From contig OZ024741.1 of NCBI GenBank assembly GCA_964016885.1, positions 299,088,001-299,152,000 of the forward strand: a stretch of DNA of 64,000 nt, written 5' to 3'. The position numbers and the translations under genes were made by a program. Positions 1 through 62,485 of this stretch are shown piece by piece (position 1 is the stretch's first letter; every line of letters starts with the position of its first letter). The notes under the pieces are model-generated. The model had not been told where the DNA came from and searched no databases. It saw only the letters and a program-made list of their open reading frames with translations. The stretch comes from Eledone cirrhosa (lineage: Eukaryota).

Positions 1-2125
1 ATAGTACTGACCCGTTATTTCGTCCATTTAGTTCCCCCCTGTGTTGGTTTATCCTTTCACCTATGCTACGAGCTGTCACACCTATGTATGTTGCTGTCAT
101 GTTTCTGCAAGTACCCTCTGTACATCTTATGCTATAGACTACGTTTCTAGTTTTACAGTTTATCCGGGGGTTCACTTTACATATGATACATTTCCTATTG
201 GTACAGTGGGTTTTCTTAAAAGGGTAGGTTTTGCTGATCAGGGATTTTATGGTGGTTCCTGGCTTTTCTACCACCTTTATTTTTAAGTGGGTCTTTCTCA
301 GGGCTTTTTTCTACACTGGTTAGCTAATTTCCCTCCAGGGGTGGCGTCCACAAACATGACACTCTGGTATCTCTGGTTGTCGTACCATGAGGTGGCTTTC
401 CCTATCTTATGTCTAGCCTTATCTTAGCTATTCCATGATTTGCTCCTGTATAATGGGCAAATTCCTTTCATGTCCAGTTCTATGAGGGTCTTATACTTTT
501 CCATGGCTCCTTCGTATACTCTGACTCTGTCTCTTTGGTTGTAGCCAGAGAACTGCATGCGGTTGATGAAGTGTTGGATGTGTTTTTCCATTTCTGTTGG
601 GTCGCACATGCGGGACACATTCTTCATCACTCGTACCACATCTGAAGATCAGAATATTAAACTTAGCACTACTGGACATTGCTGAGTTTTTGAGTATCAG
701 GTATTTGGAGGCCATGGCTTTAGCATAGTGTGAGTGGAGAATTTGGGCTCTCTCGTCTATAGTGTTAATCTAGAGTTCCGTGTCTAATACAGGTAGTCTA
801 TTTTTAGGGTGTTTGGAAGGGAAGTCGATAGTTACAGTTATACTAGTGGGGGTGTTCCTATAACTATATTGATATCGTCTACATAACGAGAGTACATGAT
901 GAGGTCTATGGAGCTTTCATTAAGGAGATCTTTAAGTCTCCTTTCCCACCATACCATGAAAAGGTTGGCAACATCACCAGCTATGCTGACGCCGATAGCT
1001 GCTCCCTCATTTTGGGTGTAGATTTTCTCATTGAACTTAAATATGTGGCCCTTTAGGGTAGTTTTGATACTAGCCCCTATTGCATGTGCGACCATTTTTC
1101 TTACCTGATCATTGTTTTGGGGGGTCCGTATAGCTTTGGTCCACACAATCCACCTTCCCATGGGAGTCTTTTTTGCCATTGAGGTTATGGTGGGGGGTCT
1201 ACCTCTTATAGGTCTACTAGGGCAGAAACATCTAAGGTCATGGCTGTCTAGGTAGTCAGTGTCGTAGGTAAATCTAAGTAGGAGGCCCAGTTCGTCTGTG
1301 TCGACGTCGCAGAACTCCACCTCACTCTCAATGATCATCTCCACACATCTTTTCACAGCAAAATCAATGTTAATGGATGGGTACAGTGACACCACACCCA
1401 TGCTGCCTATTATTCAGTTGGATAGGCTCTTGTTTTTGTTGCACTCACTGATTCTGCTGAGGAGGTCCTCTGTACTGTCACATACATCTGGGGACATCTT
1501 GATTATGGGGGGTATAACCATTGAGAGGAAGTAGGAGATCCTGTAGTTGCTAGCTATATTAGCTCCGCATACGGGTCTTGTTGGTGGTCCTGTTGTCGGG
1601 TCGTCGACTGTCTTGTGGTCTTTGCGGAGCCCATACAAGGGTGGTATGCCATTGTTAGACGCCTGGAAGTTGTTGGCAGTGCGTCTGCTTGGCTTTAGGA
1701 TGTCAGTCCACATCATCATGTGAGCGTTGAGGATTCTTTCTCTCCCATCGTGTGTTTGTTGTGCAATTTCGCTCGTGTTGGTGATGTGGGGTTGCATAGC
1801 CTCGATGTAGTTCGGCATGCTATCTATTGACATCCTACCAGACTTATCCGTGGGCAGACACACTACCTCACCATCCCTTGTGCGCTGCTTGAGGCTAACC
1901 AAGCCTTCTACAGGTTTCCTCCCAAGTTGTTGGGCCTTTGGTCTGCTCTGTCTCTTAGTATACCTGTCTACTATTTGTCTAATCTTATTTCTATCTATGG
2001 TGAACTGTGCCTCTGTCTCGTCATCTATATGTTGTGGTATGCAAACTCTTTTATTAAAGGGTAACCTCGTAGGATACATATTACCCATCTTATATGTTTT
2101 GTCAGCTGGGTTGAAAAATAGTTTC
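1..2125 (-). mobile_element. Penelope-like retroelement (probably Naiad-type), 5'-truncated and decayed: RT plus C-terminal GIY-YIG endonuclease, running off the left edge
   Basis: Minus ORFs 1414-2217, 838-1401, 491-715 and 424-639 give TDKSG, P-LYGLRKDHK, RPVCGA, SLYPSI, GAAIGVSIAG, YSRYVDD and MQFSGY. Bases 1-200 read C-x4-C-x2-C...NVVYSIRC...YIGVTARSIGERINQH. Contains stops, frameshifts and a deletion near 840. Confidence 0.93.
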
Positions 2126-2132
2126 TCTAAGG

Positions 2133-2233
2133 GGTGTTCTGCTATTAATTCTGGCAATATTACACAAATATGACCCTCCCCAAGTATAACAATATTTGTT
2201 TCGACACACGATTTCATATAAAAAACCTCGCTA

Positions 2234-2236
<3 letters not shown>
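2133..2236 (+). mobile_element. PLE 3' terminal segment, inverted relative to the PLE body at 1-2125, ending in (TA)n
   Basis: Near-identical to 39593-39696 and related to the Naiad termini at 24068-24170 and 27920-27957 (GGCAA...ATGACCCTCCC-AAGTATAACAATAT). Confidence 0.8.
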
Positions 2237-2418: not shown

Positions 2419-3074
2419 TATATATATATATATACCAGTATGTATCGATTTAAATATATAAACACACACACGCACACAGACATATATACAGTGGTAGATG
2501 GGGATCTTAAAAAAGCGTGGGAACTTATTTATGTCATAAAAATGAGAAAAAATAAATCAAAATTTAGTATCGCTAATGTACAAAGTTTCGTGTTGAAAGC
2601 TGCAGGTGAAACTTCTCCTTGGAAAATATATGGGACTTAAATGTCAAGTGATGGATGTGATGCTTTTGAAAATAGGGGAACCTGTGGTGAATCATTAATT
2701 GCAGAAATTTCGCAGTTTGAGCTATTTCGAAATTTTATAAAGAACCAATTAGATGTTGAGATTTACATCTTATTATAAGTTTACAATGAGGAGGAATCTG
2801 GTGTGTTGTATCATGCTGTTCTTGAAAATACACAGTACTTTAAATATGAACACAATGTACATATGTTTTATTTAAATATAGTTTACATCATCATAAGCTC
2901 TTGCTGGTTTAGAAATCAAAGATACGATGACATATTTAAAACATTAAATCAGGTACATTTGTGTATGTAGGCACCGACTCGTGACACCGAGAGTCAGAGC
3001 TGCGCCGCAGTGATAAGCCATTTCTTCCAAAGAAGTAGACATAAAAAGAGAGAGGGTGATAGAAAGGAAGCGAT

Positions 3075-3193
3075 GTGGTGCTTTTATATATGGAACTCGA
3101 AAGAATGAAAGGAAAGGTTTGAACTCCGACTGCAGAGTCAACGAATACCGCAAAGCATTCAATTCAATGCTCTAACGTCTCTGACAATCCACC
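3075..3193 (-). mobile_element. Old degenerate copy of the main tRNA-derived SINE
   Basis: Remnants of GAATGAAAGG...TTTGAACTC...AAAGCAT...CTCTAAC...CAATCCACC match the reverse complement of the SINE consensus. Confidence 0.55.
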
Positions 3194-3724
3194 ATACCGT
3201 TTATGTTCACCGGCTCAACGAATGCGTGGATTACTTCAGAAATTCTTCTAATTGTTCTTCAACCAATTTATCTATGACATGCATGGTCAGAATATTTCTT
3301 TTAATAATTCAAAAGCATGTTTACTTGTTTACACCGTCATGGCTCACTAATGCCGGGACGTTTACTAATAGGGACAGCATAGTTCAACATGCTTGTTTCG
3401 CTTCCATTACTCATTTACTTCTTTATTCAATAGATCAATGAATAATTGTAGCCGTATGAAACTGGATAAGACGATTTGTTTTGACAGCGAAATAGCTCGA
3501 GGTTGAAGAAGAAATAGAAGATTCAAACGGGAAACGAAACCTGAGATTTGAAGAGCCTGCAACATTAGTTCTTTATTTTATTTACTTTCCATTTGTTTGG
3601 GAGAAGATAAAGACAAAGGTTCTGGCAAAGAAGTTAGTATAAAACGAGTTTGCACTTTTAAGGATTTCTGGAAAATTACTTCCATTGCACATTAGTAAAT
3701 GCTAATGTATCGAAAGTGGTGTAA

Positions 3725-3847
3725 ATGGACCTAGCAAGTAAGGTCCGATTGATGAATAAAAAAAATGACAATGAGCTTCTACATGACACGATGAAGGAAG
3801 ACATTGAAGAAGAGTCAGTTACATCAGAAGGAAACTGCAAGAAATGT
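3725..3847 (+). CDS. Putative first coding exon of an unidentified host gene (MDLASKVRLMNKKNDNELLHDTMKEDIEEESVTSEGNCKKC)
   Basis: ATG directly after an in-frame TAA, 41 open codons in unique sequence, then a GTATGT donor at 3848 (phase 0). No homology recognised. Confidence 0.4.
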
Positions 3848-3925
3848 GTATGTAAACACACATTAAAAAAATATTTAAGCATGTAAACATGTCTTATTTA
3901 CGATTCACTCCGTACATATAAATAT

Positions 3926-4040
3926 ATAACGAAGGAAGTGTGGTAAGGACTATAACGCACCAGAGTACTCAATACTTAGGGTAGTAATGTGGTAATAGGG
4001 AAATGTTTAACCCGACCGCAAAGCTCAAGCCGTCGAAATA
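3926..4040 (-). mobile_element. Family E foldback element, hairpin collapsed by deletion
   Basis: ATAACGAAGGAAGTGTGGTAAGGA...GAGTACTCAATACTTAGGGTAG matches 28022-28100 and the reverse complement of 34072-34150 and 61632-61711. Confidence 0.8.
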
Positions 4041-4093
4041 TAAAATATTCAATGATATTAAATCAATGGAAACTATATTTATAAAACCATATT

Positions 4094-4154
4094 TATTCTA
4101 TTATATATATTTCAAGGGTACCAAAACTTTGGTACGCTCTCAACAGATAAAATA
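4094..4154 (-). ncRNA. Hammerhead copy in the opposite arm, core mutated (CTGTTGA)
   Basis: Reverse complement of the 4242-4302 motif with A6 changed to U. Confidence 0.7.
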
Positions 4155-4241
4155 CAAAGTTTGTTTTATAAATATTGACATAACCAAGAGGAAGAACTTA
4201 ATGGTTCAAGTTTTTCCTGGATATTTATAAAACAAAATTTG

Positions 4242-4302
4242 TATTTTATCTGATGAGAGGGTACCAAACTTTTGGTACACTTGAAATATATATAATAGAA
4301 TA
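4242..4302 (+). ncRNA. Type-I minimal hammerhead ribozyme, intact core
   Basis: Stem I TATTTTAT/ATAGAATA, core CTGATGA at 4250, stem II GAGGGTACCAAA/TTTGGTACACTT, GAAA at 4283, palindromic ATATATAT stem III, AUA triplet; predicted cleavage after 4294. Confidence 0.85.
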
Positions 4303-4455
4303 AATATGGTTTTATAAATATAGTTTCCATTTATTTAATATCATTGAATATTATACTCCAGAAAATCTATCGAGTGCTTTGAATCAGTTATAAACATTTA
4401 TAGTTGTTGAATTACCAACAAATTGAATATCCGTTTTGCTTATATATAAAATATA

Positions 4456-4706
<251 letters not shown>

Positions 4707-5097: not shown

Positions 5098-5380
5098 TAA
5101 TAAATGTAATCTGAGTTGATAACATTCGATTCGTTTGCAATTTTGCAAACAAGCCTCAATTTTATAGCCATGTCAGGAGAATGAACACTTCATTCTTGCT
5201 CTTATGTTGGCATGCGAACATAACAGCAAGAATGAAGTGTTCATTCTCCTGACAAGGCTATATAATTGAGGCTTGTTTGCTAAATTGCAAACGAATCGAA
5301 TGTTATTATTAATATTCGAAAAACTCAGATTACATTTATTGTATTCAACTATGTAGAGCGAAATTTTCTTTTTTATAAAC
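5098..5380. mobile_element. Asymmetric foldback element (arms about 5098-5200 and 5224-5340, extension about 40 nt)
   Basis: Inverted repeat of about 100 bp with one indel, flanked by TA/CA microsatellites. Confidence 0.8.
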
Positions 5381-5444: not shown

Positions 5445-5642
5445 AACATATATATATAAATATTTCCAGAATATTTGTGATTTTAGCACAAGGTTAAAAA
5501 TAAAGCTGTAAACAGGTAAACACAATAACAGGCATTAGACATAATTAAATCTGTCATATTTACCGAAAAATAGAAAGAAATGCACGTGTAAAATGTTATA
5601 TTATGCTCTATTTATATATACGTTTCATGAATAGGTAGGTAG

Positions 5643-7300
5643 GCATTAGCTTCCTAGTCTTTCTATCCGTTTCTTTTTGTTCAGTAACATTCCATTTCAG
5701 AATTCCCGCATTGTACCTAATAATTGTTTCTACTTTTGGCACAAGGCCAGCAATTATCCCAGTGCATTACTGGTACTTTATTTTATCGACCCCGTAGGGC
5801 AATGTTAACCTCGGCGGGATTTGAACGCAGACCATAAACGGCCGTAACTCTTTGCTGCAAAGCATGGCGTCAGCCCCTCTACCGATATTGCAAATCCGCC
5901 AGACACATATTTGTGCAGACTGTTTTTCTCCATCTGAACACAGTCCTCTATTCTGATAAGACCTCTTCCACCTTCAGATCTCCTTAAGTAGAGTCTATCA
6001 ACATCACTCCTCTTGTGGAAAATGTTGTAGATAGTCATTAGCTTCCTAGTCTTTCTATCAATTTCTTTTTGTTCAGCAACATTCCATTTCAGAATTCCCG
6101 CATTCTACCTAATGATAGACACAGCTCGAGAATTTACTGCACTTATGACATTCCTACTATTTAGATGTGATTTTAGGATGTTCCTTACTCTCCTTATGTA
6201 TTCAGATCTTATCAATTCCTTCATTTTATTGTTCTTGATGTCATCTGCCTCCAGAACAGCCAAATAGTTGTATCCCTCTTCATTGTTAATTTCCTTTATC
6301 ATCTCACCTGTTGATACCTGGATTCCGTAGCTTCTGTTCAATTTACCCACTTCATCACTAGGACTCCACACTTATTAACACCAAATTTCATACATATGTC
6401 ATTGCTGAAAATACGGACAGTGTTAACAAGTATATCCAACTGCTTCTCACTTTTCCCAAAGTGTTTTAGATCATCCATGAAGAGGAGGTGGTTGATAGTA
6501 AGCTCTCCTTTTCCCAGCTTGTATCCTGCTTTCACTTTTTGCAATATTAGTGACAAGGGTATGAGGGTAAGGACAAACAACAAAGCGGACAAACTATCTC
6601 CCTGGAAGGTAACTCTCTTAATCTTCACGCCCTTGTTTCGGTCTTTTATTATCAGAACTGTGGTACCTTTTGTCAACCACTCAGGTTCTTCACCCGACAC
6701 CAAGCCGTCATTGGACATGGCTGTCAGTTTTGGGTGGCGAGATGTTATATTTTTTATCCAATATCCTTGCACACAATCTGGACCTGGTGATTTCCACTTG
6801 GTTATTTTTTTGACTTGCTTTTTAAGAGTTTCAACTGTGAATCTCAAATCAGACTTTTGGTATCCTTGTTTGCTAAACTCCTTTTTAACAGTCTCAATCC
6901 ACACTGCCTGACTATTATGCTCAACATCCTGCTCCAGAATGCATTAGTCTGTTCAGCTTCAGGGATCACGTCATTACCTCTTTCTTTCCCTTCAAGCTGT
7001 TCAAATGACATCTTCTGGGTATTGTCAAACTCCGTTCTCATATCGCTTTATATTTGCGCTTTTTGCTACTATGCGTTGCTTCAGTTCCTCTATGATAAAA
7101 TTTAGGTCTTTTCCCTTAGTATTTTATTTTATTTTCAATCTATATTTAGTGTCTATGTTTTGTAATGTCCCATTTGGTAAAGACTCAAGCTTTCCAATGT
7201 CTTTTCTTATTTCCTTGATTTGACCATTCAGTCATTTCTTCCAACAGGGAGCACTTGCTGGGTGAGAGTCGTTCACATGAAGTTCCAGCCTCCTTTCCCC
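5643..7300 (-). mobile_element. R4/Dong-clade non-LTR retrotransposon RT fragment, decayed and interrupted by a SINE
   Basis: ORFs 6338-6904, 6105-6371 and 5805-6038: WKSPGPD, FQGDSLS, INHLLFMDDLK, FGVNKC, SDVDRLYLRRSEGGRGL. Confidence 0.9.
5720..5900 (-). mobile_element. Main tRNA-derived SINE (about 190 bp)
   Basis: Reverse complement of consensus GGCGGTGGATTGGCAGTATCGGTAG...GAGTTCAAATCCC...GGGGTCGATAAAATAAAGTACCAG...GCCTTGTGCCAAAAGTAGAAACAATT. Confidence 0.9.
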
Positions 7301-8147: not shown

Positions 8148-8838
8148 CTAATTTAGCCTTTTAAGGTCTCTTCTTTTCAACCAGTTCCATGTCTGTGGAT
8201 CTCTGAATTCAGTTTTCTCAAAGAAGGTACTATGAAGGGATTTTTTATGAAGGCTGCTCTTTCTCCTTGTTGATATTTCCTCCTTGGACATCCCCTGGTC
8301 TATTGTCCTCTCCTTCAGTACAATTCTGAGCATTGGCTCCGTACTATCACTCACGCATTTGTACAGGTTGTTTTTCTCCATCTGAACACAGTCCTCTATG
8401 CTGATAAGACCTCTTCCAGCTTCAGATCTCCTTAAGTAGAGTCTATCGACATCACTCCTCTTGTGGAAAATGTTGTAGATAGTCATTAGCTTCCTAGTCT
8501 TTCTATCAATTTCTTTTTGTTCAGCAACATTCCATCTCAGAATTTCCGCACAGTACCTATTAATAGACACAGCTCGGGAATTTACTGAACTTATGGCATT
8601 CCTACTGTTCAGATGTGACTTTAATACGCTCCTTACTCTCCGAATGTATTCAGATCTTATCAATTCCTTCATTTTTTTTGTTCTTGACGTCATCAGCATC
8701 CAGAACACCCAAATACTTTTATCCTCTTCAGTGTCAATTTCCTTTATCATCTCACCTGTTGGTACCTGGATTCCGTTGCTTCTGCTCAATTTACCCCTCT
8801 TCATCACAAGGTTTCCACACTTACTAATACCAAATTGT
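8148..8838 (-). mobile_element. Second R4/Dong RT C-terminal fragment
   Basis: ORF 8148-8807 is closely similar to 5901-6390 (KELIRSEYIRRVR, IDRKTRKLMT, SDVDRLYL). Confidence 0.9.
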
Positions 8839-8839
8839 T

Positions 8840-11280
8840 AGAAGGCAGCACTTGCCTCTCCACCCTTATTTTCCTCTTCAAGTGAAACTTGAAAAAGTTA
8901 ATTAGAGATTCGCCGAAGAGGAAAGTGTGTCTTTAACCCTTTCAGCCTTGTCCACCACACAATCTCTTTCGCCATGGCCACCAGGCAGATGATAACCGCC
9001 CGCCCTTTCTCCTCAAAGGAAGATGGCGAGACCATCTGCACAATCGACTCAGTCGATAACCGGATCAGTCCTACACGCGACAGCAACTGTTCGACATAGC
9101 CCCACATATCAGCAACGCTCGGGTACTGAACGAGTGCGTGCACGACGGGTTCGTCGCTCTCCGCGCATCTCGGACAGGCTCCGCTGACGACACTTCGGTG
9201 CCTGTAGAGCTTATCTCGAACCGGCAACGCTCCCCGGTAGCACTGCCAGGCCAGGGATTTTTGGAAGTTATCCATAGGCCCTGGGCTGAAAGTTCTCCGG
9301 AAGAGAGCAAACAGCTGATCTTCTTCGACGCCCAGGATCTCTTCGAGAACGTCGTCGCTCCTCCACTAGTCCTCTATAGAAGGCCGATGTGGATGTTCCA
9401 CCGATACTGGTGCCCAGCTGGCAGAGAGCACTGAGCGCCTGGAGACATTCCAGTTTCCAAGCGCTAACTCTCGGTCTTTTCCTGACCCAGGAATGCAGCT
9501 CCGTCAAGAAGACGAGCTTTGGAAAAACGTACCTGGCACCCCATGTCAGATTCTGTGAGGTCGGGGAGGGGTACCAGCTCCACTCTTTCACTTGTTCTTG
9601 TCGGTGATGGTTGCAGTGGAGTTTCTGTTGCAGCTGTAGTTGGTATTACTGTTGTTGTTGTTACTACTTCCACTGCTGCTGCTGTTGTTGTTGTTAATAC
9701 TTCCACTGCTGCTGCTGTTCTTGATTTCCGTGACGTGGGTATGGATGCCACGGACCTATCCTTCCTGCTTGCCTCCTGTCCTGCTGCTGGTAGCAGTAGA
9801 GCTGGTTTCTGAAGGAGAGGGGTTTTCTCCTTTCTCAGGGTCTTCTCATTGCAGAAGGCCCTGAGGTGAGTCTTCGACCCACAGCGAAAGCATTTCGGGC
9901 GTTTGCCCTCATCATTTAGGGGAAGTTGAGTGCCGTTATCGAAGTCTATCACATCCGGGATAGCTTTGATGCACTCCTGGTTGGTTTGAATTAACATCTC
10001 AATGGAGGCGCCGACCCAATCTTCTCGTAATTTTTTCTGTACTTGCAGTACAGTTGTTCTGTCCGCGATTCCGACGGGGACAGACGCGGCCAGCCAAGAA
10101 GGGGACGTCCCAGGGGGCCGGGGGGGGGGGGGACTTGTGTCAGTTTGACCCTCACAATTTTTTGCCCGCAGTAGGAGGGCACCAACACCATTTCCTCGCT
10201 CCTTAGGATTACTAAGGATTGAGCCTTTGCCTCCTGGGGTATGGCAAAAAGCACGTCCACGGTTATATATTTCTTGCCTCGGGTGTATGCGTTTTCCGCT
10301 GCCACACAGACCCTAAGGCTTTTTGGTTTTGAGCCTCTGTGGCTCTTTCAACCCTAAGTGATTTGTGCTTACTGTACAGTGCTGTTGGGTTTCGAAAAAT
10401 TCATCGGCTGCCTTGCAGATTGCTCGGTGTCCGGTTTTCGTCACCATCTTCCTTGCTTCCTGGAATTCCTCATTTGTTATAAGGATGGTTTCCAGGTTCT
10501 TTGCGATACCTGCAAACGAGATTGGTTTTTCTTTCTTGTTGTTGTTGCCGTCAGAGCTGCTGTTACTTTTGTTGTTGCTGCTGGTATTACGACCGACGCC
10601 GCCGCTGTTGCTGTTGTTGTTGTTGTTGTTGCTGCTGCTGTTGATGCTGCTGCTGTTGTTGTTGCTGTTGCTACTGTTGTTGTTTATGCTGCTGCTGAGG
10701 TTGCGGCTGTTACTAGTATTTTCCTCGAGACTGTTGCTGCTGCAGCTGATATTACGGCTGCTGCTGCTATTCTTCATGACGTCAGACGAATGAAATGGCT
10801 TTCCGTATTTACCGCAAACATCTTTCGTTGTTGTCGGCGTCGTGGAGAAATGTTCCACGGTATGCGCGTTCTCCTGATGAAGAACGCTACGAGAAACTAC
10901 ATTTTTTCTTTTTTTTTAATGGCGTCTTTTGCGAAAGAGGCGACAGAGGCGACACCACATTTAGAGGAGGAAGGGAGAGAGACAATCTTTTCTCTGACGT
11001 AATGACGATTGGGAGGAAGAAGACGGAAGGAGTGGGAGTGACTTGTGAAAATTCTTTTTTGTAGCCATGTTTTTTTACAGTTTAAAATGAATATTGGGCA
11101 CAAATCCCCAATAACTGGTTATTTAACCCCGAATGGCCAAATAGCAGGCAGAAAGGCCTCTCTCACGAGGAGGAGGGTCTCTTTATCTACAATTTGGTTC
11201 AAGTTTTAAACAATTTACAATTGTTATAACGGTTAAAAATTACAATACCTTACAGACCCGAGACACGGTCAACCATGGCA
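8840..11280 (-). mobile_element. Tx1-like LINE with large internal deletion (ORF1 joined to the ORF2 C-terminus at about 9545)
   Basis: ORF1 pieces 10313-10858, 9991-10305 and 9464-9997 with CCHC knuckle CFRCGSKTHLRAFC; ORF2 zf-RVT piece LAWQCYRGALPVRDKL...CPRC; EN and RT core absent. Confidence 0.88.
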
Positions 11281-11283
11281 TTC

Positions 11284-14200
11284 AATAATAATAATAAAAA
11301 TGATGATTTCATTTATTGGCCACAAGGGCCGACATATAGGGGACAATACAAAATACTGGGACAGTGGGGTTTTACAGAAAAATCGAGTAAACAATATGAA
11401 TAACAATAACAAAGTAACAATAAAAATAAAAGAAGAATTCACCAATAGGGGGATGACCAACCATGGTTCGCTCAGGTACCCCACCAATCCTGAACGACCC
11501 GACACTTCCAGAGCACCCGGGAAGGGCACCTCTCTCCTCCTGAAATTTACCCACCTACAGGCGCATGATGAGAGTAGGCCCAGTCAAACGGGCCATTGTC
11601 GCCAAATTCACCCACCTTTCAGCAAATATACTGGGGGACAGCACTTAGAGAGTGCTGGCAGCAAATGGACCGCCTCACCAACTGAACCTGACCCCTCCAC
11701 AAGAATCTGAAGAGGAGCCGTTCCAACTTGGCGAGGCGCGAACGTGGGCAAGGGACGACGGTCAGGTGGTAGTAGATGACGAACGCGATGTACGCATTTG
11801 CCACCCCCGCCCGACCTTTCAGTGATAGCTTCCTCTCAGCCTATTTCTGGGTGAGACTGGCTACCCTGCCCATCACCTAGTCCCAATTCTTATCCACCTG
11901 GAGGTCTGGCCCGAACCAAACTCCGAGCAACATTACCAGTCCGTCCGTCAAGCGTCCAACGACGATGTTGGACGGCATGGAGTTGCCTCTCCAGGTACCG
12001 AGTTGCAAGCCCACCGACTTTTCCAGGTTAAGTTTTGCTCCCATCAATCTTTCATATTCTTCCAATAAGTTGCCGACCACCTCTGAGGTGTCAGACACCA
12101 TCATGGTGATGTCGTCTACATAAGCCGACACAGCCTTTCCGCGTCCCAGTTCGAGCGGGATACCCTGCAACAGCTCCATCTTCCGCAGTAAAGGCTCGAG
12201 AGTTAATACTTTCAGAAGGGAGGAGAGAGGGCACCTTTGACGGGCCGATTGGGAGATCTGCAAAGGTTCCGAGAGGTGGCCATTGACTTTGACCACCGAG
12301 AAGATGCCGCTGTGCAGTTCAGTGATCCAGCTTCTGAAGAGGGGCCGAAGCAAGCCGCCTTGAGGACAGCCTCCAGGTAGCGATGGTCGATCATATCGAA
12401 TGCTTTCGATTGATCTAAATTGATCCAAGCCCCACCGAAGCCCGGTTTACACCAACCCTCTCTATGATGTATCGCATCAGGTGGAGATGGCGTGTATGGA
12501 CTTGGTTGGGATTGCGCAAGTATGCCCCCCCCCAACCAAAACCTCGACGACAAGCGCCAACCTATTCGCTAACAGCTTGGTCAAAATCTTAAACTCTGTG
12601 CAGAGTTATGGGCCTGAAATTGTCTAATGTGTCACTCTTGTTCTCGTCTTTCCTTATCAGCGTCATTATGCCTTGCTCACAGAACTGGGAATACTCCTGT
12701 TCTGCTGCCAGTTGCAGTAGAGCGCTTCGAGAAGATTAGAGAACAAATCTGGCATATATACGTAAAGCTCGTAAGGCAGGCCATCCAAACCGTGTGACTC
12801 GTGCCTCATGCAGCCGACAAGGGCATCCTGAATCTCGGGTGAAGTAATCGGCGTTTCGCACCGTTCAGCGTCGGTCGTCGAGATTTGCGGCAAGCCATCG
12901 AGGTAGAGACTGAAGTCCGCCACCGTCTCTGACCCGCCATTTCCCGTGAACAACCGAGCAAAATGTTGGCGAAAGGCCTCACACATCCGCTTGGAATCAC
13001 TCAGCTCGTGTCCGTCTCGGTCCATTAAAGACCGAATCATGGTTTTATTACCACCCTGCACCTCTTCCACGCGGGCCCATCGATCAGCTTTGGTTCCCTC
13101 GTTTCTCAGAGCACGCGCCTTAGCTCTGACAATGCAACCTTCGTGTTTCGCATTGAATAAATGATCTAATGCCATTCTCGCCGCTAGCACGTTAGTTGCA
13201 ATTCCACTGCAAATAGCCTCATACAACTTATCTACCAACCCCCCTTCTTTCTATTTGTCTCTAACGCTACTTCTTTGCTAAACGCTATCGACATTATTCT
13301 AATCTCTCTTTTGAGACCCCCCACGATCTATTTTTGACGACTTCCCCTGTCAACTTTGTCTTAACTAAATTGTTGACCTGGTCCCTGTAAGCCTTACGTG
13401 CCGGAAATGACATGTTTAGTTTCCAGTAACCAAGTCCTAACCTACGCGTCTTATCTGGGTCGACCATACAGATCACAAACTTGTGATCTGAATAGGCGAC
13501 CGTTTTAAAACGTGGACAGCTTACAATATTTCTTTCTATTTTCCTAATGAATATCCTGTCTATATACGATATGTATGACCCTATGCGGTTAGTCAAGGTC
13601 CACACTGGTGCATTAGGGAAATCTAGTCGGTACCTGTCAGACAGTTGGAACTAGCTGATCAGGTACTTGAGGCTTTTGCATCCCCCGCTCCTATCGGATA
13701 CTCCCACACAGTCCCAGCATGCGTCCAATATGCCGTTCCAGTCCCCCGCTAACAGTAAAGGGCGAGACGTACCTAGAAAGGCTTCCAGGTTTCTAAAGAA
13801 GTCCGACGGTCCTCTCCCAGTAGATGGCCACCAGTCTAAAGGCACCACCTTCGTTATTGCTCTTACCGGGTCCCGGAAGATCGACCTTACCTCGAGATCC
13901 AAGCCTTTCCTAAACAGGGGGCTAGTGCGCGCGTGTCGGAAATCCTGGTCTCGCTGACGGCAATTAAATCCATTTCTAGAGACCTGAGGTCATTGAGCGG
14001 GTGACCCTGCTTCCAGGACGATCCCAGGCCTCGTACATTTAAACTTCCTACTCTTAATACGGCCATGTTGGCAGGCTAAAAGACAGAGGAAAGTTTTACT
14101 TACCTTCCGGGCTCTTGTGAAGGTCGGGTGGTTCGACCTTTATAGTTGGGGGGGGGGGGGGCTTTAAAAGTCTTGAAGTGGGTTTTACGTTCGGGGTTCC

Positions 14201-15925
14201 CACGTCGCGAGGAAAGCTGTCTCGTATCTCTTTGTATAAATCGAGCGACATTCGCACCAGAAACAAATCTTCCGGCACGCGAAAAGTGCTCGATTTAAAA
14301 ATTGACCCTTCTTTTTGTATTTCTTCACTTTGTGCTATGAGGGCCATCAGTTCCTTGTTGGCCCTCCTGACGAGCACGAAGTTTTGTATGTTTTTTTGGT
14401 ATAATTTTATTTGTTTGCGTGGCTTTGGTGGTGATGGTTTTGATGGTTTTGTTTCGGTTGTGTCTGTGTTTGTTGCGAGTGCGGTGTCTGTGTTTTCAGA
14501 TGTTTGTGTGTGTATTTGTTCTTGAGTCCGTTTAGGTTGTTTGCGTTTGGGAGATTATAGTGATGGTGATGGTGGTGTTGATGTTGGTGTTGTTGGGAAG
14601 ATGTTTGCGTGGGTGGTGTTTGCATTTTTTATTGTGGGTGTTTTTGTGCTTTGGGTTTTTAGATTTTTGTGTTTCCTTTCTTGTATTTTGGGGGATTTTG
14701 GTTTTTCCTCATCTTCACTACTGGTAGATGAGGGCTCTGTGTCTGTAAGTGTGTATGTGTCTGTGTGTGTGTTTATGTTTTTATTGATGTGTGTATTTTT
14801 GGTGGGAGGGGGAATTTGACAACTTACCTCGTTTCCCCCCTGGTTGGTCAATGTTGGTGGTGGTCTTTCTATTGGTGTTGTTGCTGGTGGTTTTGCCGGT
14901 GCTGGTGATGGTTGTGGTCCTCGCCACGATGTCGGCAGCAGTGGAGCTCATCGACCCCTTCCATCTTTCAGCAGTTGAGAGCAGAAGGCTCGCAAATGGG
15001 TTTTTCCCCTCAAACAAAACAATGCGGTCTTTTACCCTCGGTCATAATGTGAATGACCGGACCAGTCCTCTCTGGCAGTTCTTGTTACTTTTATCGGGAC
15101 AGTATCCGTCCCCGCCACAATCACACATCCCAGAAGCCACCACATGTCAAGTCCTGGTGGGATTCTGGGAATGCGGAGACGGGCCGTTCTTTTTCCCATG
15201 AGGGAGGGTAAATTATGACCTTGCTGGTTTTTAGGGTGTCATAGCGTGTTTCTTAGCGAGCGCTTCTGACTTAAACATCACCGAAATAGTGCCCTATTTT
15301 CTGCCCCTCGCTATGTATTCGGTGTCTTCTCTGATGCACCTCAGCGTGACTTCGACATCTGCTTGTGCAATTAAAGCTGCTCATTTGGTTTGTGCTGAGA
15401 TGCATCTGCCATGCACCGTTCTGCGCTCCACTGCTTCAATAGCTTCTACCCGGACAGTTAAGTTGGCCGAGGTTTGCTCTTGCTTGATGAGCTTCCAGGC
15501 CTGGGTCAACTGTTCATCTTTGTTTGAGAGGTCCTTGCTGAAGCATGGCCTATTTTTGGCTGCTGCCGCAGCGAAAGTGTTCTTATTGTTGTCGTTGGTG
15601 TTGTTGTTGTTGTCGTTGTTATTATTGGTGTTGTTGCTGTTATCACTGTTGCTGTAAATCATTGTTGTCTTTGGGGCCGCCGTTGTTGTTGTTTTCGGTG
15701 CAGTTGGTATTGTTGCTTTTGGTGCTGTCGCTGTTTATGTTCTGGTTAGTGGTGTTAATTTCGTTGTTGTTTTCGTTGATATTGTTGCTGCTGCTACTGT
15801 TATTGCTGTTGTTGTGGTTGTCACTGTTGTTGATATTGTTGTCTTTGTTGTCGTTCTTTCTGTTCTTGGTGTTGTTGTCATTATTGCACTCGATGTTGGT
15901 TTTGCTGTCGTTGTTGCTGGTGCAA
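11284..15925 (-). mobile_element. Tx1-like LINE, decayed: ORF1 (about 14096-15925), ORF2 APE-RT starting at ATG 14066, deletion near 11630, (ATT)n tail
   Basis: GDWN, YIDRIF, SDHK, GYWKLN, GLDGLPYELY, LDQSKAFD, RQRCPLS, AYVDD motifs across minus ORFs. Confidence 0.92.
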
Positions 15926-61780: not shown

Positions 61781-62485
61781 TAAGAGGAATTCCAAATTTG
61801 TCTGATTTACTCGTTTTATTTACAATCCTTTAAAATATATATAATATGGTATTATAATGAAATAGTATGATAGAATATTAAATTCTAAGTGTTAATTGAA
61901 CAAGTACTTTCATGCTTTCGCAATCTTCAGGTTCATGATATGTGGTGACAGTCGAGTTTGCAATTTTCAACTGTAATGAGATGGGTAAATTTACTACCTT
62001 TTATACATTTTATACAGAGAAAAGTGGCTCCAGAATGCAAAGCCCTGTAAACTGTATTTCGACCAATCAGTGTGTAGTTTCACTGAATTACTACAGCTGA
62101 TTGGTTTAAGCGTCACGGCTGGTTGAGCATGCTAACGACCAATAGTCATACCCAACGTATCAATTGTTTTGCTTTTTGAAATGATGAAAATAGCATTTTC
62201 TATTAATCATCACCATCAACATCACTTTTATTATTATTATTATTATTGTTGTTGTTGTTGTTGTTAGTGGTCGTGGTCATAGTGGTAGTAGAAGTAATAC
62301 CCCTAGGCGTTATTATTGTTCATTTAGCTTGGGTTTGAATTTATCAATAAAATTCTTTTCTTTGATTTTTCTCTTGATTTCACTTGGGCTGTGTAATTTG
62401 TAGAATGGGAATATTATAAATATTCCCTGACCACATGTTGCCAGGTGGCCGCTTAGGGGTATCTGACGGACATTTGGGTGTGACT
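61777..62485 (-). mobile_element. PLE 3' fragment (endonuclease C-terminus plus UTR) ending in (TA)n
   Basis: PNVRQIPLSGHLATCG...FPFYKL...RKIKEKNFIDKFKPKLN resembles the C-terminus at 39050-39200. Confidence 0.8.
61897..61935 (-). ncRNA. Minimal type-I hammerhead ribozyme, intact core
   Basis: Minus strand TGAAC-CTGAAGA-T-TGC gaaa GCA-T-GAAA-GTAC-TT-GTTCA: 5-bp stem I, GNRA loop II, palindrome AAGTACTT. Confidence 0.88.

What the first reader, a model, noticed from the sequence alone, without database searches (positions are those of the whole stretch)
4044..4440. ORF-less hairpin with two opposed hammerhead ribozymes, one intact and one core-mutated
Seen: the + arm has a complete type-I hammerhead (8-bp stem I, CUGAUGA, long stem II, GAAA, palindromic AUAUAUAU stem III); the - arm has CUGUUGA. 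Established: PLE-associated minimal hammerheads with palindromic stem III cleave as dimers. Inference: a transcript could either self-cleave or fold back into 130 bp of dsRNA that masks the ribozyme. It lies about 400 nt downstream of a putative exon on the same strand, so it could act on an intron.
Basis: partly seen in the sequence, partly recalled or inferred. Interest (0 to 1): 0.75.

Follow-up and report, generated by a model that had tools for sequence, protein, structure and literature searches.

The report
Head-to-head Penelope retrotransposon ends
This hairpin is two cut-short ends of a very common Penelope-type jumping gene joined back to back; each end carries the element's own predicted self-cutting RNA motif, which is predicted to be shut off here because the two ends would pair with each other, so it is an ordinary example of a known insertion shape.

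Summary
In detail: 135-bp arms, 95% complementary, with a type I hammerhead motif on + (predicted cut 4294/4295) and a CUGUUGA copy on -. It is not a bespoke RNA switch. 4044-4440 is one copy of a high-copy repeat (2255 candidates, 40 scored, 91-97% identical). In longer copies the repeat lies about 1.1 kb downstream of an RT plus endonuclease ORF with Hydra-clade motifs (DKT, CxCX5C, CxxC).

The window holds a sense end with a 94-nt tail (4221-4440) joined head-to-head to an inverted, tail-less end (4223-4044). 15 of 29 sibling loci have the same shape, and it is published, including for Hydra-clade Penelope-13_HM. The A6U change is sporadic (1 of 69 other segments).

On either strand the antisense arm is transcribed first, so folding predicts no ribozyme in a read-through RNA. 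Opposed copies also cannot form the dimer in cis. The fold covaries across subfamilies, so it was likely selected in the active element. The upstream exon is unsupported, and no RNA holder was listed. The scan has reported the same kind of thing on other DNA. Verdict: new family member of a known kind; low interest.

The parts
4221..4440 (+). Sense 3' end (pLTR) of a Hydra-type Penelope-like element, 5'-truncated, with tail; followed by (TA)n
4044..4223 (-). Inverted 5'-truncated copy of the same end, without the tail; includes the so-called spacer
4242..4302 (+). Type I hammerhead motif, core intact: stem I 4242-4249/4295-4302, CUGAUGA 4250-4256, stem II 4257-4282, GAAA 4283-4286, palindrome 4286-4293, predicted cut 4294/4295
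4221..4321 (+). Extended fold with 13-bp distal helix (4221-4233 with 4309-4321)
   Evidence: 12 of 13 pairs with probability 0.94 or more in the isolated segment
4094..4154 (-). Second hammerhead motif with A6U at 4143 (CUGUUGA, 4146-4140), predicted cut 4102/4101
4176..4223 (-). Family hairpin just upstream of the ribozyme (CCAGGAA...TTCCTGG type), the junction hot spot; 3-nt microhomology at 4221-4223
4347..4440 (+). 94-nt tail between the family's two fixed 3' ends (after 4346 and after 4440)
4441..4559 (.). (TA)n tract, the likely insertion target
   Evidence: (35 of 40 tail ends are followed by TA repeats)

Best explanation
4044-4440 is a truncated head-to-head insertion of a high-copy Penelope-like retrotransposon end, likely of the Hydra clade and likely inert, whose predicted ribozymes would be masked by arm-to-arm pairing. 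Shown: it is a dispersed repeat; long copies place it downstream of an RT plus endonuclease ORF on the coding strand; the family has two fixed 3' ends followed by (TA)n; inverted 5' copies are common; junctions cluster at a hairpin upstream of the ribozyme; the fold covaries between subfamilies. Inferred: the endonuclease cut a (TA)n tract, copying started at the two fixed sites on uncleaved element RNA, both copies stopped near the hairpin, and they were joined 5'-to-5' through palindrome and microhomology. Inferred: in the active element the hammerhead works as a dimer on tandem transcripts, cutting about 200 nt upstream of the ORF start. Inferred: this copy has since drifted, and A6U is one such change. 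If read through, it would make about 130 bp of double-stranded RNA instead of cleaving.
For:: 2255 candidates, 40 scored; the 39 other places match at 91-97%; in L040 and L049 the order is RT/endonuclease, 3' UTR, hammerhead on one strand; same order in L064, L065, L066 and L069, with the hammerhead about 1.1-1.3 kb past the open frame; L065 also has an inverted end at its 5' side; in L070 an upstream copy runs on into the ORF start (MELF...RWRAF) 54 nt after the tail end; 35 of 40 tail ends and 25 of 28 short ends are followed by TA repeats; 15 of 29 loci have a head-to-head arm (10 of 24 after removing five loci whose score was helped by junction sequence in the query); 24 of 29 sense arms start within -59 to +6 of 4221; all 13 scored inverted arms in those loci keep CUGAUGA; core positions deviate at 13 of 775, non-core at 105 of 6450 (0.017 vs 0.016); 95.6% of cells paired, 7 of 21 pairs with two-sided change. 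Literature.
Against: No tree against reference elements was built, so the clade rests on motifs read by eye; Pfam found no family in the L064 and L065 ORFs. The ORF-bearing copies L065, L066 and L070 are a sister subfamily (about 90% identical over the end). The tail is 94 nt, against the 30-40 bp in print. No target-site duplication can be read, and the left TA tract is reduced to a few bases. The 29 loci are the best-scoring of 2255 candidates, not a random sample. The covariation set is 13 hand-picked related sequences; two of five measures did not beat the shuffles (72/500 and 452/500). The neutral-decay test has little power. No cleavage was tested.
Confidence: 0.92

Rival explanations
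1. The insertion has been co-opted as a host RNA switch that either self-cleaves or folds into dsRNA within an intron.
For: The + core is intact. The isolated + segment has a stem I probability of about 0.18 and the open hammerhead fold is only 1.4 kcal/mol above its minimum. A transcript starting inside the junction would not be masked.
Against: Read-through folding gives zero stem probability on both strands, including growing prefixes. There is one sense motif per strand, and the stem III duplex is worth only -3.2 kcal/mol. The same shape occurs at 15 of 29 sibling loci. The exon is unsupported.
Confidence: 0.03
2. The short fold-back unit is itself a non-autonomous mobile element (MITE-like or retrozyme-like) that spreads as a unit.
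For: Most high-scoring copies are short and similar in size. Summed contig depth falls roughly tenfold or more upstream of the junction hairpin (the tool warns this is no copy number).
Against: Junction positions and sequences differ between loci, as independent events would give. The same end is contiguous with 3' UTR and ORF in other copies. No tandem array of the unit was seen in the loci fetched, and retrozymes are defined as tandem.
Confidence: 0.04
3. The palindrome is an assembly artefact or arose after insertion by local fold-back repair.
For: Long palindromes beside (TA)n are hard to assemble. No contig in the public runs spanned this locus.
Against: The arms differ at 7 of 135 positions, each with its own private changes. 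The inverted arm holds 48 nt of family sequence absent from the + arm. It ends at the family's second fixed end. Opposite-strand joints at the same hairpin occur in contigs of another data set (three joints, one contig each).
Confidence: 0.01

Closest known systems
Hydra clade of C-terminal EN+ Penelope-like elements (Craig et al. 2021, PMC8557442), especially Penelope-13_HM and Hydra-1_Obim
   Same: DKT, RWK-like (RWR) motif, CxCX5C linker, C-terminal endonuclease with CxxC, (TA)n targets and a sense-strand hammerhead near the 3' end. The supplement lists Penelope-13_HM with a 5'-truncated inverted copy and two hammerheads on opposite strands.
   Different: The hammerhead differs from that of Hydra-1_Obim (stem III acca-a-tggt there), so this is another family. 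The 3' UTR is long (about 1.1-1.3 kb; element about 3.5 kb against 'generally under 3 kb'). The tail is 94 nt.
Inverted pLTR plus tail structure of EN+ Penelope elements (Arkhipova et al. 2013, PMC3846280)
   Same: Head-to-head inverted pLTR, shorter than the direct one, overlapping it at the junction, a palindrome at the junction, and a tail on one end only.
   Different: Here the body of the element is missing, the tail is longer, and no target-site duplication is readable.
Minimal and palindromic-helix-III hammerheads of metazoan PLEs (Cervera and De la Pena 2014, PMC4209133)
   Same: Long helix II, short palindromic helix III, predicted dimer. The paper also notes pairs 100-700 bp apart on opposite strands in Schistosoma.
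   Different: Helix I is longer (8 bp plus a 13-bp distal helix). The usual G10.1-C11.1 closing pair is G.U, A-U or U.U in this family.
Poseidon element of Anolis, two internal reverse transcription starts (Frangieh et al. 2024, PMC11167929)
   Same: Two fixed 3' ends bounding a tail, AT-rich targets, and a hammerhead upstream of the start sites.
   Different: There the ORF starts inside the hammerhead and priming is described as non-homologous. Here the ORF starts about 200 nt after the cut site and both ends abut TA-like element sequence.
Non-LTR retrozymes (bioRxiv 10.64898/2026.07.22.740005)
   Same: Non-coding, type I hammerhead, PLE-derived.
   Different: Retrozymes are tandem head-to-tail arrays. 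This is an inverted pair with one motif per strand.

Membership tests
EN+ Penelope-like element | RT plus GIY-YIG-type endonuclease ORF linked to the repeat on the same strand | tested here: met
   ORF then UTR then hammerhead in L040, L049, L064, L065, L066, L069. Domains were read from motifs; Pfam gave no hit. The window copy itself has no ORF.
EN+ Penelope-like element | pLTR from partial tandem: the end repeated upstream of the ORF | tested here: met
   in L070 the same end runs into the ORF start; L070 and L072 continue with the same sequence.
EN+ Penelope-like element | Inverted 5'-truncated copy with a tail on one end only | tested here: met
   15 of 29 loci; tail 94 nt, longer than the published 30-40 bp.
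Hydra clade | DKG motif changed to DKT | tested here: met
   KSDKTNNLY in L064, L065, L069.
Hydra clade | CxCX5C linker before a C-terminal endonuclease | tested here: met
   CNCRIKSNC, then YVGAT, in L065, L067, L069.
Hydra clade | N-terminal RWK motif; CxxC and CxH at the C terminus | tested here: met
   RWR variant in L070; CKLC in L065; CRH read by eye in another frame past a break in L065.
Hydra clade | (TA)n insertion preference | tested here: met
   35 of 40 tail ends, 25 of 28 short ends.
Hydra clade | CCHH motif absent from the endonuclease | tested here: inconclusive
   Not seen by eye; no alignment to reference endonucleases was made.
Hydra clade | Phylogenetic placement of the RT | not tested
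   Reference proteins were seen only as cut text in a supplement and were not available to the tools.
Type I hammerhead ribozyme | Core CUGANGA / GAAA / UH with three stems (+ arm) | tested here: met
   stem III is 3 bp with a 2-nt loop as a monomer, 8 bp as a dimer.
Type I hammerhead ribozyme | Core intact (- arm) | tested here: not met
   A6U at 4143. A6C lowers Mg-dependent cleavage strongly in other hammerheads; I found no data on A6U.
Type I hammerhead ribozyme | Stem covariation among homologues | tested here: met
   24 cells with two-sided change (0 of 500 shuffles as high); stem III ATATATAT, ATATGTAT, ATGCGCAT stays self-complementary. Related sequences can beat such shuffles without structure.
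Type I hammerhead ribozyme | Self-cleavage | not testable with these tools
   No assay was possible.
Non-LTR retrozyme | Tandem head-to-tail units each with a hammerhead | tested here: not met
   two motifs on opposite strands, no array.

The most novel reading that the evidence does not exclude
This family preserves, at thousands of loci, a readable footprint of how Penelope-like elements make inverted ends: two target strands prime at two fixed internal sites through TA microhomology, both copies stall at an RNA hairpin just upstream of the ribozyme, and the palindrome joins them. The product silences its own ribozyme and supplies dsRNA against the family.
Probability: 0.3. Interest if true: 0.4.

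Novelty: new member of a known kind. Interest (0 to 1): 0.13.

Why it matters
For this locus, little: it is one decayed copy among thousands. It is a caution for genome scans, because opposed hammerhead pairs in (TA)n-rich animal genomes are a by-product of Penelope-like insertion. The family as a whole could be useful. Its two sharp 3' ends, 94-nt tail and junction hot spot give genome-scale material for the open question of how inverted ends and tails form.

Tried and rejected
Rfam scan: no hammerhead family; miRNA hits are hairpin artefacts below gathering score. Pfam on the family ORFs: nothing. Naiad clade: rejected, since the endonuclease is C-terminal and the motif is DKT. RNA search: no RNA holder listed. 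The four runs listed are contigs of unrecorded kind from one study and may include the window's own sample; none spans the locus. Genome search with the divergent L064 hammerhead: nothing, not even itself, so uninformative. First pair count used a structure string that was off by one column and is discarded (corrected). Single-copy region 2480-3830: five short frames gave no Pfam match below E 0.05, one frame had no paralogue, and the Atlas gave no answer. Earlier-findings search by sequence: nothing. Paper search for A6U: none. Paper search for twin priming in Penelope-like elements: no listed title addresses it (listing only).

Full report
OBSERVATION. The hairpin is real: arms 4041-4175 and 4221-4355, 135 nt, 95% complementary, folding at -174 kcal/mol. 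A loose type I hammerhead scan of the whole window, allowing any base at core positions 6 and 7, gave two hits: + at 4250 (CUGAUGA, cut after 4294) and - at 4146 (CUGUUGA, cut after 4102). Rfam reported no hammerhead family. Stem I continues past an internal loop into a 13-bp distal helix.

IT IS A HIGH-COPY REPEAT. A search of the own genome (3.0 Gb) with 4200-4440 gave 2255 candidates; 40 were scored and the 39 other places match at 91-97%. Copies end at two fixed points. One corresponds to 4440: of 40 such ends in 66 loci, 35 are followed by TA repeats, 2 continue into the element, and 3 have other sequence. The other corresponds to 4346-4351: of 28 ends, 19 are followed at once by TATA, 6 after 3-5 more bases, and 3 are otherwise (44 further anchors continue into the tail). 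Duplicate loci, the window's own locus, its neighbour and the loci were left out of these counts. The window's + arm ends at the first point and its - arm at the second (4044). The 94 nt between them is a tail on one arm only.

THE PARENT ELEMENT. Following the repeat upstream led to a 3' UTR and then to RT and endonuclease frames. A protein search found 40083 candidates, 150 scored. Of ten long-frame loci fetched, L064, L065, L066 and L069 have the hammerhead segment on the coding strand 1.1-1.3 kb past the open frame; L065 also has an inverted copy at its 5' end. L040 and L049 link the window's own UTR type to the same protein at 77-81% identity. In L070 an upstream copy of the end runs into the ORF start 54 nt after the tail, which makes the end a pLTR and puts the predicted cut about 200 nt before the start codon. 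The protein has RWR, DKT, CxCX5C, a C-terminal YVG-type endonuclease and CxxC. These are the stated marks of the Hydra clade. Pfam found nothing and I built no tree. That the host is an octopus is my inference from genome character and the likeness to Hydra-1_Obim (by eye); no call names it.

THE FOLD-BACK SHAPE IS ROUTINE. Of the 29 other loci, 15 have an inverted arm head-to-head at the 5' side; 14 of these carry both hammerhead boxes on both arms. Five loci scored better because the query held 21 nt of junction; without them the count is 10 of 24. In 24 of 29 the sense arm begins within -59 to +6 of 4221, across a family hairpin (-12 kcal/mol in L022). Palindromy makes these coordinates approximate, and the loci are the best-scoring copies, not a random draw. 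In the window the spacer is that hairpin, belonging to the - arm, with a 3-nt overlap at 4221-4223. Other hammerhead families or subfamilies in the fetched loci also occur on both strands close together (L021, L028, L070, L076). In contigs of another data set, summed depth drops upstream of the hairpin and three opposite-strand joints involve it; the tool warns that depth is no copy number.

THE CORE CHANGE IS SPORADIC. Among 69 other segments of 88% identity or more that cover the box, 62 read CTGATGA and 1 reads CTGTTGA; all 13 scored inverted arms among the 29 loci are intact (one arm at 87.9% fell below the cut). In runs X1-X3, over 99.9% of summed depth at 4143 has the canonical base. The + arm differs from the column majority at 7 of 220 positions and the - arm at 3 of 135. 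Core positions deviate as often as non-core ones across copies (13 of 775 against 105 of 6450), which fits neutral decay after insertion but is a weak test.

THE FOLD WAS LIKELY SELECTED IN THE ACTIVE ELEMENT. Across 13 hand-picked motifs from this and related subfamilies, 95.6% of cells pair, 7 of 21 pairs show two-sided changes, and slid controls reach 38-63%. Three of five measures beat all 500 shuffles and two did not. Stem III stays self-complementary as it changes, as a dimer would need.

HOW IT WOULD BEHAVE IF TRANSCRIBED. In a 4030-4450 transcript of either strand the predicted probability of stems I and II is zero, and the growing RNA pairs arm to arm from the moment the second arm appears. 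The isolated + segment has a stem I probability of about 0.18. The stem III duplex is worth -3.2 kcal/mol, and a strand-swapped active dimer scores -47.6 against a cofold minimum of -50.3. Opposed motifs are on different strands and cannot pair as a dimer in cis. These are predictions. Only an RNA starting inside the junction could escape masking.

HOST CONTEXT. 3460-3830 is single-copy, but 3831-3900, which holds the best donor-like site, matches 24 other places. Five short frames from 2482-3880 gave no convincing Pfam match. The neighbourhood is mostly retroelement remnants. An intron is neither shown nor excluded.

COMPARISON WITH PRINT. PMC8557442 (abstract, passages, section 11, parts of the supplement) describes inverted 5'-truncated copies and one-sided tails as typical, and lists Penelope-13_HM with an inverted copy and hammerheads on both strands. 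PMC3846280 (passages, section 11) describes head-to-head pLTRs with junction palindromes and proposes self-priming on an antisense template. PMC4209133 (parts 1-2 of 4) reports dimer-dependent, weak cleavage and opposite-strand pairs. PMC11167929 (parts 1-2 of 4) shows two internal start sites bounding the tail, and that uncleaved RNA is the template. The retrozyme preprint was read in part 1 of 5; its supplements are closed. PMC7151607 and PMC3088659 (passages) show that A6C lowers activity.

MECHANISM OF THE JUNCTION. Simple fold-back of one cDNA does not easily explain this copy, because the tail-less arm carries the hairpin and the tailed arm starts after it. I therefore favour two primed cDNAs joined at the palindrome. 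This is inference; the antisense self-priming model of PMC3846280 is not excluded. Both ends abut TA-like element sequence (AATATTATA after 4346; TATAAAT after the tail in L070), which suggests microhomology priming. The short end lies in the loop of a weak hairpin (-2.0 kcal/mol), a lead from an earlier scan note that I checked only this far.

VERDICT. A new family member of a known kind, in a known insertion shape. I reached this reading before consulting earlier scan notes (stated); one search then showed eight similar unreviewed reports on other DNA, which are not independent support. Interest 0.13.

Noticed in passing
window 700-2235 (-): Degraded Penelope-like RT of another family (frames 838-1413 and 1414-2235; YVDD, DKS motifs). 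Its end near 2080-2236 matches 10 of 66 fetched loci, and it abuts (TA)n.
   Followed up: partly
window 5119-5306: Second palindrome, 94-bp arms, no spacer, 95% complementary, beside (TA)n; no hammerhead hit; matches L019. Probably another head-to-head repeat end.
   Followed up: partly
window 3916-4040: Very abundant repeat directly left of the element (15 of 66 fetched loci; high depth). It may have displaced the left TA tract.
   Followed up: partly
window 4560-4700: Remnant matching L010 and L070, the loci that hold hammerheads with an ATGCGCAT stem III; no intact core here.
   Followed up: partly
L073:9128-9257 (about 750 bp left of the window start): Another tail-less copy of the same end, 88-90% identical, between TA tracts.
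   Followed up: partly
L073:5692-7120: A different hammerhead family with a very long stem II: three + copies about 556 bp apart and one - copy. The tandem same-strand spacing is retrozyme-like and could allow dimers.
   Followed up: no
window near 61930 (-): A compact hammerhead motif (CUGAAGA, 4-bp stem II, cut triplet ending in U) resembling those listed for Hydra-clade elements; found only.
   Followed up: no
window 2480-2970 (+): Single-copy stretch that reads like a coding frame broken by two stops; no Pfam match of weight and no paralogue for the one frame searched.
   Followed up: partly
window 5635-6943 and 8148-8837; 9000-15700: Degraded non-LTR retrotransposon copies (RVT_1 hit at 6341-6943) and other RT-like frames.
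   Followed up: no
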